Source: the human T2T-CHM13v2.0 reference genome, Homo sapiens. From it: DNA of 64,000 nt. Location: assembly GCF_009914755.1 (NCBI RefSeq), contig NC_060943.1; one strand, given 5' to 3'. Below, piece after piece: positions 24,701 through 27,610 of this stretch. Every line of letters begins with the position of its first letter. Position 1 is the stretch's first letter. The notes beneath the pieces are model-generated. The model made no database searches. It was not told the DNA's origin and saw only the letters and a list, made by a program, of their open reading frames with translations. The position numbers were made by a program, and so were the translations under genes.

Positions 24701-27610
24701 TTAAAAGTCAATTTAAATAAGCAACTTAGTAGCCTTTGGAACTTGGGTCATCAGTCATCCAGTTTCTGTTCTCAGCTCCTGGAGAAAGAATTTTACAAAG
24801 GATGGGAAACTTCAAATAAGTGCAATTCATTTTGGGCTGACCCAGTGCCCTGGATAATGTGTTTTGTTCGGTTCGTGCTTCAGACATTTCTTGCAGGATA
24901 TCGTAGTTTGGAGATTTCTTCCTCCCGTAACTGATTTTACATACCTAGGATCACCACTCTACGGCAGTTGTGAACATATTAAGAGGAAGAAAACAAGTGG
25001 CCTATTGAATTGCAGTTTCCTCATCTACATGTGCGTGACCTTTTTTCCTTGTAAGAAGGAAAAAAACAAAACGGTTCTTTTGGAGAGGGCCAGGGTTCTC
25101 TAAGTATGTCAGGGATCAAAAGTGGGAAACTGGGAAAATGCAACTTCAACGTGTTTTGTCTTTTAACGGAACTTATGCTTGTAAAACACATCAGAAGTAC
25201 AGTGTTTGGTTCTGCAAGTCATTTCTGTTGTTGTTTTTTCCTTGTTACGTGGAGGCCGGGGGGACTGGGGGCTGGAGGAGGTGTTCCCTCCAACATGACT
25301 GGGCGTGTAACACGTTTGCATCAACTTTTCACAGTCAGACATGTGCTTTCGAACAAAGGAGCAGTGGAGACAGGCAGAGATGGGGGCTTGACACAGTTTA
25401 CAGATTTTGTGCTTCAACAGTACTTTACAAATGACTTGCTCAATTTTAACGTCCATCACCACAAGAGACATTGGAGTAAAATGAGAAAATTGGAGCTACT
25501 TGAACCAATCTTTTTTGGGGAGTGGGGGGGAGGGGAACCATTAATTTGAATACCTGCATCATAAATCAAATCCAGTAAGCTTGTCTCCTACAAATGGACT
25601 TGAAGTATCCACTTTCTTCAAAGATGAAGGCTGGAGACAAAGCAATGGATTGAAATGGAAAGAAGGATGCCAAGGGTCTGAAAACATACGGGCCTTTTAC
25701 ATCGATTTTTGTCATGTTACAGTAACACACTTTTTTTTCTGAGAAAACTGTGTACGTCAAATTTTAAAAATTAAACATTGAAAGGATGTGCAAGTCTAAA
25801 AGGGCTCAACAGGGTTAGAATCCTGATTCGAACATATCAATTCACTCTCAAGCATCACTTTGGTCTAAAGGCGAGGAGGAAGGCAGGCAGTAAAGGGAGA
25901 AAAAGAGGGAGATCATTGAATTACTCAATAAAAGAGGCTACTTACCATCCCAACCCATTGTAAGACATACACTTCTGACATAAGAGAACTCCTTAGAGGT
26001 CGAATAAAGCGTGTAAGCACCTTTGAGTAATGCACCTGCCCCCGGAGAGGGGGCCCGGAAGCCCAACGAGGGCTTAGCGAACAGACCTTTGCTAATCTGT
26101 TTATTTCCTTGAACTGGAGTCGGGCTGCGATGGGCTGCGATTCCCAGGACGATACATTTAATTAGAACAAAACAGAAAAAAAAAATGTTGTAAAAGCTCA
26201 CCAAACTGCTGCACTTGTGTCTCTGAATGTGGGTGGCATTTCTTTTAAAAGGCAAAGTATGGTCTGTGAAGGAGAAAGGGGAAAGGGGAGGTGGGAGTGG
26301 GGAGAAGGGGTCGTACGTACAGCCTGGCAAGGGAAGCCCTGGCTGAGACCCCCCGGCTAAGGAAGGGTCCTCAGCGGCTCCCCAGCCAGGGCTGCGACGG
26401 AGTAGCCATCTGTCCAGAGCGTTCTCTTCCCCTCTCCACCCCCATTCCCTCCAAGACTCGCTTTCCTGCCGGCTGAAACCCACCGTCCGTGTCCAAACCT
26501 ACTCTCCAGCCGCCTCTTCTCTCGCCCCACCAGGAAACAGTGGGCGAACCCTGCACCCCAACTCCTTCTGCTCGAGCAGGGGAAGGAAACGGGGCCCCAA
26601 CCTCGCCCTGAAACGCGCCGGGCTGACCCCATTATCACCCGCCAGCCAGAGAAGGGCGTGGGGGGCCCGCGTTTCGGACTTAATAAAGAGAAGGGGGCGC
26701 TTCCTTTAACGCCCTGCCAAAGCACAAGGAAATCTCCTTTTCTCTCCCGGAAGAGACGGTGCCCCATTTTACCCCGACAGAGGGGGGAACCCCAGGAGAA
26801 AGCGCGGGACCAACTTCCTCTCCCTACAAGGCAGGGAAACCAAACCTTACCCCCGCAAAACAAGGCTGAGAATCCTCCCTCACGTCACCTACCTACGAAA
26901 AGCGAGAGGACCCCTGCCCTTTAGCAAAAACACGGGGAAGAGTCTTCTCTAAAAAAAATAGGCTGGGGTTTTCATCAAAAGGGCTGGAGATGCATCTCCC
27001 CCCTCCCCAATTCGGCCTTCTAGGGGATAGCTAAAAAACACCCCCCGCCAAAAAATACAAGTGCTATAGAGCACCCACCCAAATGACCCCCAATTACAAG
27101 GATGGAGAAGGGACCTGAATGAACCCCCACCTTCTGCCTCCTAAGCTAAAGTACCTATCATCCAAGTAGGACAGGGTGTGCCTCCCCCAGGAGAAAGGAT
27201 ACTGCCGGGGGCTGGGAGACCCCCAACCCCAAACCCCTAAGAGCGGGGCTGTTGTTCGAGATCCCCCCAAAAAGGGTCCGGAGCCCCTCCCCCATCCCCT
27301 TCCCCGAAGCCAGGCGACGGGCAAGCGGGCCCGTAGCTGCCAGCTCCGGGCGCAGGGGCAGCCAGGACCCCCGTGGGTCTCCGCAGCACCCCCCACGGCG
27401 CCCCCTCCCCAGGACAGGCGGACGGGCGCGGGGGGTCCGAGGGGCGCCTCCTCACCTTCCCCTCAGCATGGCGCCCAAAAAAGACAGAGCGAGAGCGAGG
27501 GAGAGCGGGCGAGCGCCGCGAGGGGGGGGAAACGCATGAGGCCGGGAGAGAAAGCAAGCGAGAAAGAGCGAGCGAGCAAGCGATCGAGAGACACCCACCG
27601 ACCCCGCCCT

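What the first reader, a model, noticed from the sequence alone, without database searches (positions are those of the whole stretch)
26202..26263. 62-nt cryptic exon: stop in the upstream frame, then an ATG in frame with exon 3
Seen on the minus strand: a roughly 40-nt polypyrimidine tract ending ...ctccttcacag|A, and donor TTTG|gtgagc. Joined to exon 2 (AG+A) it reads R-P-Y-F-A-F-TAA (stop at 26247-26245). Five nt later gaaATG (26239-26237) opens MPPTFRDTSAAV, whose TG joins the first G of exon 3 to give [11 protein letters not shown]. Inference: one exon can act as a poison exon for the Pro-rich isoform and as the start of a shorter isoform that keeps the acidic ARS2-binding-type motif. From the short MLRGR exon it would create a 10-codon uORF. 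The 5-nt gap is short for efficient reinitiation, so leaky scanning is an alternative.
Basis: partly seen in the sequence, partly recalled or inferred. Interest (0 to 1): 0.8.

Follow-up and report, generated by a model that had tools for sequence, protein, structure and literature searches.

The report
Annotated alternative 5' exon of ZC3H4
This 62-base stretch is an alternative exon of the human ZC3H4 gene that public gene models already contain; it would cut the normal protein short or start a slightly shorter one, and nothing here shows it is more than an ordinary minor splice variant.

Summary
On the minus strand there is a 45-nt pyrimidine tract, then AG|A, a 62-nt exon, and the donor TTTG|gtgagc. 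Read from exon 2, the exon gives a TAA at 26247-26245. Five nt later an ATG (26239) opens a frame that joins the ARS2-binding double motif at the start of exon 3.

The exon is not cryptic. Two of the 13 RefSeq ZC3H4 models in the window, XM_054320346.1 and XM_054320347.1, carry it with the same borders and place the CDS start at 26239.

- **Splice sites:** plausible but not exceptional. The acceptor is at the 68th percentile and the donor at the 28th of chr19 exons, and 3 site pairs in this intron score as well.
- **Stop-then-ATG layout:** it arises by chance in 7-13% of 62-nt sequences.
- **Full inclusion:** the ORF would end after 59 codons with 12 junctions at least 50 nt downstream, which meets the NMD rule.
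- **Not tested:** conservation, read support, NMD sensitivity and translation. No vertebrate genomes or reads were available, and no mammalian ZC3H4 isoforms were retrieved.

My verdict is a real but ordinary, already annotated minor exon. It is most likely unproductive when included in main-promoter transcripts. A regulated dual function is possible but unsupported.

The parts
26202..26263 (-). 62-nt alternative exon of ZC3H4, internal exon of RefSeq models XM_054320346.1 and XM_054320347.1
   Evidence: Annotation table; sequence; not in a masked repeat; only a self-match in the human reference
26264..26310 (-). 3' splice site: AG at 26265-26264 preceded by a 45-nt C-rich pyrimidine tract (42 of 45 pyrimidines)
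   Evidence: PWM score 13.38, the 68th percentile of 249 chr19 acceptors. No yUnAy branch consensus lies at a usual distance
26196..26201 (-). 5' splice site gtgagc after exon end TTG
   Evidence: PWM score 6.83, the 28th percentile of 248 chr19 donors
26157..26195 (-). T-rich run at +7 to +45 after the donor (62% T). Such runs can help weak donors (recalled knowledge, not tested)
26245..26247 (-). TAA stop in the reading frame coming from exon 2 (or from the ATG at 27469)
26202..26239 (-). ATG (26239-26237) plus 11 codons and 2 nt, in frame with exon 3. RefSeq's CDS start for the two models. Context AAAGAAATGC (G at -3, C at +4)
27732..27897 (-). Exon 2 of the select transcript, with the canonical ATG at 27892 (context GGAACTATGG) and a 53-codon Pro-rich leader ending in AG
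27456..27718 (-). Alternative first exon (XM_054320346.1) that splices to the 62-nt exon. It holds ATGs at 27657, 27537 and 27469, giving upstream ORFs of 64, 24 and 10 codons
9695..9914 (-). Exon 3. Its first ten full codons (9913-9884) are the double ARS2-recruitment-type motif. Its acceptor is very weak by PWM
   Evidence: Literature passages

Best explanation
The stretch is a genuine minor alternative exon in the 17.8-kb intron between the start-codon exon and the ARS2-motif exon of ZC3H4. It is already in RefSeq's predicted models.

When it is spliced into transcripts from the main promoter, the ribosome starts at the strong canonical ATG (27892) and stops at the TAA in the exon after 59 codons. 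Twelve exon junctions lie at least 50 nt downstream, so the mRNA should be removed by nonsense-mediated decay. This is an unproductive isoform that acts like a poison exon.

The in-frame ATG at 26239 is what lets the annotation pipeline call the models protein-coding. It can be the first ATG only on transcripts that begin downstream of 27892. I expect it to give little protein.

Shown: the sequence layout, the annotated junctions, the NMD-rule geometry and the retention of the ARS2 motif. Inferred: low usage, decay of the inclusion form, and the absence of a dedicated regulatory role.
For: - 2 of 13 RefSeq ZC3H4 models in the window hold the exon with these exact borders and a CDS start at 26239. 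None of them includes the canonical ATG.
- Full inclusion gives a 59-codon ORF with 12 junctions at least 50 nt beyond the stop.
- The canonical ATG has A at -3 and G at +4, so scanning past it should be rare (Kozak rule recalled).
- The stop-then-ATG layout is expected by chance in 7-13% of such sequences.
- The splice sites are decent but not outstanding, and 3 comparable pairs exist in the same intron.
- This kind of model is common. On chr19, 175 of 704 genes with Gnomon models have one whose start codon lies in an exon absent from the select transcript, and 414 of 3197 models are of this kind.
- Short non-canonical leaders spliced onto the motif exon are predicted in many vertebrates for ZC3H4 and ZC3H6. 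None resembles this peptide.
- No paper pairs ZC3H4 with 'poison exon'.
Against: - No reads, PSI values or NMD-inhibition data could be examined. Low usage and decay are therefore assumptions.
- The acceptor is above the median for real exons, follows an unusually long 45-nt pyrimidine tract, and the donor is followed by a T-rich run. These features fit a purposefully defined, possibly factor-regulated exon.
- The exon is unique, non-repeat sequence, unlike most young noise exons.
- Conservation in mammals is unknown. If it is high, the 'no dedicated role' part would fall.
- XM_054320347.1 starts inside exon 2 at 27765. If that is a true start site, the short isoform could be made from a first ATG.
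Confidence: 0.55

Rival explanations
1. It is a regulated, conserved poison exon. Inclusion is tuned by splicing factors, or by Restrictor or ZC3H4 itself, to set ZC3H4 dosage through splicing-coupled NMD.
For: The NMD geometry is met. The exon has a long C/U-rich tract upstream and a T-rich run downstream, which could be binding sites for splicing regulators (the factor assignment is recalled, not tested). The sequence is unique and non-repeat. ZC3H4 is a dosage-relevant RNA-processing factor, a class known for such loops (recalled).
Against: There is no evidence of conservation or regulation. No paper holds both ZC3H4 and 'poison exon'. None of the 20 listed papers, out of 28 with ZC3H4 and 'nonsense-mediated', concerns ZC3H4 splicing by title or abstract. 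The eLife ZC3H4 paper has no mention of autoregulation. No RNA structure stands out around the exon (z = -0.33). No RefSeq model shows the full inclusion transcript.
Confidence: 0.2
2. It is a productive alternative 5' exon. Transcripts starting downstream of the canonical ATG (about 27765 or 27718) use ATG 26239 to make a 1262-aa ZC3H4 that swaps the 53-residue Pro-rich leader for a 12-residue one and keeps the ARS2 motif.
For: This is RefSeq's own reading. ATG 26239 is the first ATG in XM_054320347.1 and has a purine at -3. Both ARM-type motifs are retained. Mammalian ZC3H6 naturally has only an 11-residue leader before the same motif, so a short leader is compatible with the family. The exon lies on the shore of the CpG island, where broad initiation is plausible.
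Against: XM_054320346.1 has three ATGs ahead of 26239, two of them in good context. The last upstream ORF ends only 5 nt before 26239, which is too short for efficient reinitiation (the distance rule is recalled). The 27765 start may be a truncated model end rather than a start site. There is no protein or ribosome evidence. No homologous leader appears in any of 134 stored relatives, although only one mammalian ZC3H4 was among them.
Confidence: 0.15
3. The exon is not used in cells at any meaningful level, and the models reflect a few stray alignments.
For: Only predicted (XM) models carry it and the curated NM does not. The donor is below average and no consensus branch point is found. Comparable decoy site pairs exist in the intron.
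Against: Two independent model structures with different upstream exons share the same exon borders. The acceptor is above the median. Gnomon models need transcript alignments (recalled).
Confidence: 0.1

Closest known systems
Poison (NMD-inducing) cassette exons of RNA-processing factor genes, for example those of SR protein genes or BRD2 exon 3b
   Same: It is a short cassette exon in a long intron. It brings a stop codon into the upstream frame with many exon junctions more than 50 nt downstream. The host gene encodes an RNA-processing or termination factor.
   Different: No conservation, NMD sensitivity or regulated inclusion has been shown here. The classical cases are highly conserved and experimentally validated. 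No annotated transcript contains the full inclusion form.
Gnomon-predicted alternative 5' coding exons that give N-terminal isoforms
   Same: An internal or first exon absent from the select transcript supplies a short in-frame ATG leader. On chr19, 414 of 3197 Gnomon models are of this kind, and 183 of those 414 have a first coding piece of 40 nt or less. ZC3H4 itself has four other such leaders in this window.
   Different: Here the same exon also carries a stop in the canonical frame five nt before the ATG. Its coding status therefore depends entirely on where transcription starts.
Short-uORF / reinitiation-controlled mRNAs
   Same: From the ATG at 27469, a 10-codon uORF ends just before the main ATG.
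   Different: The 5-nt spacer is far shorter than the spacing that permits efficient reinitiation (recalled). Two further upstream ATGs, with 64- and 24-codon ORFs, overlap the third in XM_054320346.1.
ZC3H6 N-terminus (paralogue)
   Same: A short leader sits directly before the double ARS2-type motif, at the same exon boundary. The leader is 11 residues in mammalian ZC3H6 and 12 plus the junction residue here.
   Different: There is no sequence similarity between the leaders. The ZC3H6 leader is the canonical, conserved start, whereas this one is a predicted minor isoform.

Membership tests
Poison exon (alternative splicing coupled to NMD) | Cassette exon with usable 3' and 5' splice sites, spliced between two coding exons | tested here: inconclusive
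   Both junctions exist in RefSeq models (27732>26263 and 26202>9914) and the site scores are adequate. However, the model with the exon-2 junction starts at 27765, inside exon 2. No model or read shows the complete exon 2 joined to it.
Poison exon (alternative splicing coupled to NMD) | Premature stop more than 50-55 nt upstream of at least one exon junction | tested here: met
   The TAA at 26247-26245 ends a 59-codon ORF, and 12 downstream junctions lie at least 50 nt beyond it. The first junction is only 43 nt away.
Poison exon (alternative splicing coupled to NMD) | Inclusion isoform stabilised when NMD is inhibited | not testable with these tools
Poison exon (alternative splicing coupled to NMD) | Conservation of the exon and its flanks across species (for the conserved, regulatory class) | not testable with these tools
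   No vertebrate genomes are available. The three protein searches returned one mammalian ZC3H4 protein, and it uses another leader.
Alternative N-terminal protein isoform | ATG in frame with the downstream CDS and open to the splice junction | tested here: met
   1262-codon ORF.
Alternative N-terminal protein isoform | That ATG is the first one reached by scanning on a real transcript | tested here: inconclusive
   It is the first ATG in XM_054320347.1 but the fourth in XM_054320346.1. The true 5' ends are unknown.
Alternative N-terminal protein isoform | Evidence of translation (initiation profiling, peptides) | not testable with these tools
   No such data are available here.
uORF with reinitiation | Short uORF ending upstream of the main ATG | tested here: met
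   A 10-codon uORF runs from 27469 to the TAA.
uORF with reinitiation | Spacer long enough for the ribosome to become competent again | tested here: not met
   The spacer is 5 nt. The requirement for tens of nucleotides is recalled knowledge.
Repeat-derived (for example Alu) exonisation | Exon lies in a transposable-element copy | tested here: not met
   No masked repeat lies between 20960 and 29715. A 301-nt query around the exon matches only itself in the reference.
Recursive-splicing exon | Acceptor immediately followed by a reconstituted donor (AG|GTRAGT) | tested here: not met
   The exon begins AG|ACCATA.

The most novel reading that the evidence does not exclude
The exon is a mammal-conserved, bifunctional switch. 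In main-promoter transcripts it acts as a regulated poison exon that sets the dose of the Restrictor subunit ZC3H4, possibly responding to ZC3H4 or ARS2 activity. In transcripts from internal start sites it opens a leader-swapped ZC3H4 that keeps ARS2 binding but lacks the Pro-rich N-terminus.
Probability: 0.06. Interest if true: 0.5.

Novelty: already known. Interest (0 to 1): 0.15.

Why it matters
ZC3H4 is the core of the Restrictor complex, which ends unwanted non-coding transcription, and its ARS2-binding motif begins exactly at the exon downstream of this one. A regulated poison exon here would be a handle on Restrictor dosage, and a leader-swapped isoform might alter how the motif is presented. 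As it stands, the exon and its start codon are already in the public annotation. The arrangement is one that chance and routine gene prediction produce often.

Tried and rejected
- **Repeat origin:** rejected. There is no masked repeat at the site, and only a self-match in the whole reference for 26100-26400.
- **Known RNA family:** none. Rfam at gathering thresholds gave 0 matches in 9000-30000.
- **RNA structure hiding or presenting the splice sites:** none beyond chance. A 181-nt fold gave -22.6 kcal/mol and z = -0.33.
- **Recursive splicing:** rejected from the sequence.
- **Conservation through predicted isoforms of other species:**
  - The 73-aa exon-3 query found no named candidate; 25 unnamed ones were left out by the tool.
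  - The 503-aa last-exon query gave 25 hits of 1420 candidates.
  - The sturgeon protein P0011 as query gave 250 hits of 2782 candidates, with 120 listed.
  - No mammalian ZC3H4 appeared except the naked mole-rat fragment P0003, although mammalian ZC3H6 was listed. I cannot say why.
  - None of the 134 stored proteins has a leader like the 12-residue peptide. Two bird ZC3H6 proteins share one 4-mer within their first 150 residues; I did not check its position and take it for chance.
  - This test is close to void for mammals.
- **Solved structures of the motif exon:** 0 matches.
- **Literature:**
  - ZC3H4 with 'poison exon': 0 papers.
  - ZC3H4 with 'nonsense-mediated': 28 papers, 20 listed, none on ZC3H4 splicing by title or abstract.
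  - A badly designed five-term search returned 25 papers without ZC3H4 and was useless.
  - ZC3H4 with 'isoform' and 'alternative splicing': 63 papers, 25 listed.
  - I read passages in PMC11988423. It reports a skipped-exon event in ZC3H4, but the main text gives no coordinates and the supplement is closed, so it may or may not be this exon.
  - I read all of section 18 of PMC5704677. ZC3H4 is among the genes with rescued CAGE peaks in rat and dog, with no positions given.
  - Passages in PMC8770494 and PMC12330525 were irrelevant.
  - PMC8137146 has no occurrence of autoregulat-, N-terminal, isoform or 'its own'.
  - Rouviere et al. 2023 and Estell et al. 2023 were seen only as citations and were not read.
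Full report
**What is in the sequence.**

On the minus strand, 26310-26266 is a 45-nt tract with 42 pyrimidines (28 C, 14 T). It ends ...ctccttcacag, and the exon starts at A 26263. The exon is 62 nt and ends TTTG, followed by gtgagc.

Exon 2 of the select transcript NM_015168.2 (27732-27897) carries the start codon at 27892. Its coding part is 161 nt and ends with the two bases AG. 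AG plus the first A of the 62-nt exon gives R. The frame from 26262 then reads P Y F A F and a stop at 26247-26245.

Five bases later, ATG 26239-26237 opens a 12-codon piece. Its two trailing bases, TG, join the first G of exon 3 (9914). Exon 3 then reads [10 protein letters not shown]....

**It is already annotated.**

The RefSeq table for this chromosome lists 13 ZC3H4 mRNA models that overlap the window. Two of them contain exactly this exon:
- XM_054320346.1 has the exon order 27456-27718, 26202-26263, 9695-9914.
- XM_054320347.1 has the exon order 27732-27765, 26202-26263, 9695-9914.

Both models set the CDS start at 26239.

No model joins the whole of exon 2, with the ATG at 27892, to the exon. 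XM_054320347.1 begins at 27765, inside exon 2 and downstream of that ATG. No non-coding ZC3H4 transcript is annotated here.

**Is it more than chance?**

I built position weight matrices from 250 internal exons of 'select' transcripts in twenty 10-kb stretches of chr19, using 248 GT donors and 249 AG acceptors.
- The acceptor scores 13.38, the 68th percentile of true acceptors.
- The donor scores 6.83, the 28th percentile.
- The 17.8-kb intron (9915-27731, minus strand) holds 1274 AG and 1086 GT sites. Six acceptors and 34 donors score at least as well as the candidate's.
- Three acceptor-donor pairs 30-300 nt apart have both sites at least as good, the candidate being one of them.
- By summed score the candidate is 9th of the 105 pairs in which both sites exceed the 10th percentile of true sites.

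It is a good pseudo-exon candidate, but not a unique one.

The coding layout is not unusual either. Among all 17,755 62-nt windows of the intron:
- 55.9% have a stop in the upstream frame.
- 18.7% have an ATG open into exon 3's frame.
- 12.7% have both.
- 6.7% have both with the ATG after the stop.

In 20,000 shuffles of the exon the last two figures are 12.5% and 7.1%.

The exon is not repeat-derived. No masked repeat lies between 20960 and 29715, and a 301-nt query matches only itself in the reference. No Rfam family and no unusual RNA structure (z = -0.33) is present.

**Consequences for the transcripts.**

- **Exon 1, exon 2, the 62-nt exon and the rest.** The ORF from the canonical ATG (context GGAACTATGG) ends after 59 codons. 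The first junction is 43 nt beyond the stop, and 12 further junctions lie at least 50 nt downstream. This meets the usual rule for nonsense-mediated decay. The rule is stated in the abstract of PMC13187750, seen in the listing, and is otherwise recalled.
- **XM_054320347.1.** ATG 26239 (context AAAGAAATGC) is the first ATG and opens a 1262-codon ORF.
- **XM_054320346.1.** The last ends 5 nt before 26239. Efficient reinitiation across 5 nt is not expected (recalled), so this transcript is a poor template for the short isoform.
- **After 26239.** The next ATG, 5 nt into exon 3 (9909-9907, context GGGAAGATGG), is out of frame and opens a 47-codon ORF.

**The ARS2 motif.**

The consensus of the ARS2 recruitment motif is given as (E/D)(D/E)G(E)(L/I/V). 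ZC3H4 is listed among factors with a double motif whose peptides bind ARS2 (passages of 10.1101/2023.07.25.550453; passages of PMC9402713; ELM class in PMC10767929).

PMC12187157 states that ZC3H4 residues 63-67 (ELEDD) overlap the ARS2-binding element (passages). In the assembled 1303-residue protein the only two matches to the motif are at residues 55 and 60, the first codons of exon 3. PMC12175896 reports that an N-terminally truncated ZC3H4 lacking ARS2 interaction fails to rescue (passages).

**Relatives.**

Of 134 stored ZC3H4 and ZC3H6 proteins, 93 carry the double motif within the first 200 residues. It almost always follows an R, so the exon boundary before the motif is kept from lamprey to mammals.

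Mammalian ZC3H6 has only an 11-residue leader before the motif. About ten rows have short non-canonical leaders, which shows that alternative first coding exons spliced onto the motif exon are commonly predicted in this family. None resembles the 12-residue peptide of this exon.

Only one mammalian ZC3H4 protein was retrieved: P0003 from naked mole-rat, which uses a leader like the human 27456-27469 one. Conservation of the 62-nt exon in mammals therefore remains untested. No vertebrate genome other than the human reference is reachable with these tools.

**Base rate.**

On chr19, 175 of 704 genes that have both a select and a Gnomon model have at least one Gnomon model whose start codon lies in an exon absent from the select transcript. 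That is 414 of 3197 models. In 102 of them that exon is internal, and in 183 of the 414 the first coding piece is 40 nt or less. ZC3H4 alone has five such leaders in this window. The class is ordinary.

**Interpretation.**

- **Best reading (0.55).** This is a real, minor, already annotated alternative exon. In main-promoter transcripts it makes an unproductive, NMD-prone isoform. The ATG is what lets the pipeline call the truncated models coding, and it probably yields little protein.
- **Regulated, conserved poison exon that sets Restrictor dose (0.2).** The long C/U tract, the T-rich run after the donor and the unique sequence favour this. Nothing else does.
- **Productive leader-swapped isoform from internal start sites (0.15).**
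- **Essentially unused (0.1).**

It rests on a layout that chance supplies readily.

**Literature.**

No paper in the library holds both ZC3H4 and 'poison exon'. Of 28 papers with ZC3H4 and 'nonsense-mediated', the 20 listed do not concern ZC3H4 splicing by title or abstract.

One paper reports a skipped-exon event in ZC3H4 without coordinates in the main text (PMC11988423, passages). Its supplement is closed and might bear on this exon or, more likely, on the annotated 252-nt cassette further downstream.

**Verdict.**

The exon and its start codon are already in the public annotation. Interest is low unless conservation or regulated inclusion is shown.

Noticed in passing
window 9915-9937 (minus strand, upstream of exon 3): The acceptor of constitutive exon 3, which carries the ARS2 motif, is G/T-rich rather than pyrimidine-rich. 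It scores -2.94 on my PWM, the 0.4th percentile of 249 chr19 acceptors. A very weak acceptor at the end of a 17.8-kb intron may be why many upstream alternative exons and starts get spliced onto it.
   Followed up: partly
window 27456-27469 (minus strand); protein P0003: The 4-codon leader of the alternative first exon (RefSeq XM_054320349.1 and XM_054320354.1) is matched by the N-terminus of a naked mole-rat ZC3H4 protein. Four identical residues are followed by K instead of R before the motif. This suggests that this start and donor are kept in rodents.
   Followed up: partly
window 25946-25968 (minus strand); proteins P0047, P0048: The alternative first coding exon 240 nt downstream of the finding ends in the same four residues (G L G W) as predicted ZC3H4 isoforms of two lizards. 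The pattern GLG+TG|GT occurs once in the 17.8-kb intron against 0.042 expected, and it was the only one of four non-mammalian leader tails tested that matched. It could be an old conserved alternative exon or it could be chance.
   Followed up: partly
stored proteins P0003-P0134: The exon boundary directly before the double ARS2-type motif is shared by ZC3H4 and ZC3H6 from lamprey to mammals. Mammalian ZC3H6 has only an 11-residue leader before it.
   Followed up: partly
window 9907-9909 (minus strand): An out-of-frame ATG in strong context (GGGAAGATGG) lies 5 nt into exon 3 and opens a 47-codon ORF overlapping the motif region. Ribosomes that scan past the leader ATGs of the alternative transcripts would meet it next.
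   Followed up: no
window 26157-26162 and 26100-26105 (minus strand): Poly(A) signal hexamers ATTAAA and AATAAA lie 40 and 97 nt downstream of the exon's donor. The second is inside the annotated alternative first exon 25946-26181, whose 5' end (26181) is only 20 nt from that donor.
   Followed up: no
window about 27610-27650 (minus strand): A GAG/GGA triplet run just downstream of exon 2 lies inside alternative first exon 27456-27718. It is read as a run of glutamates in the 64-codon upstream ORF that starts at 27657.
   Followed up: no
one search hit list: With a sturgeon ZC3H4 as query, mammalian ZC3H6 proteins were listed but no mammalian ZC3H4 apart from one fragment, although they should score higher. 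I do not know whether the word index or a filter removed them.
   Followed up: no
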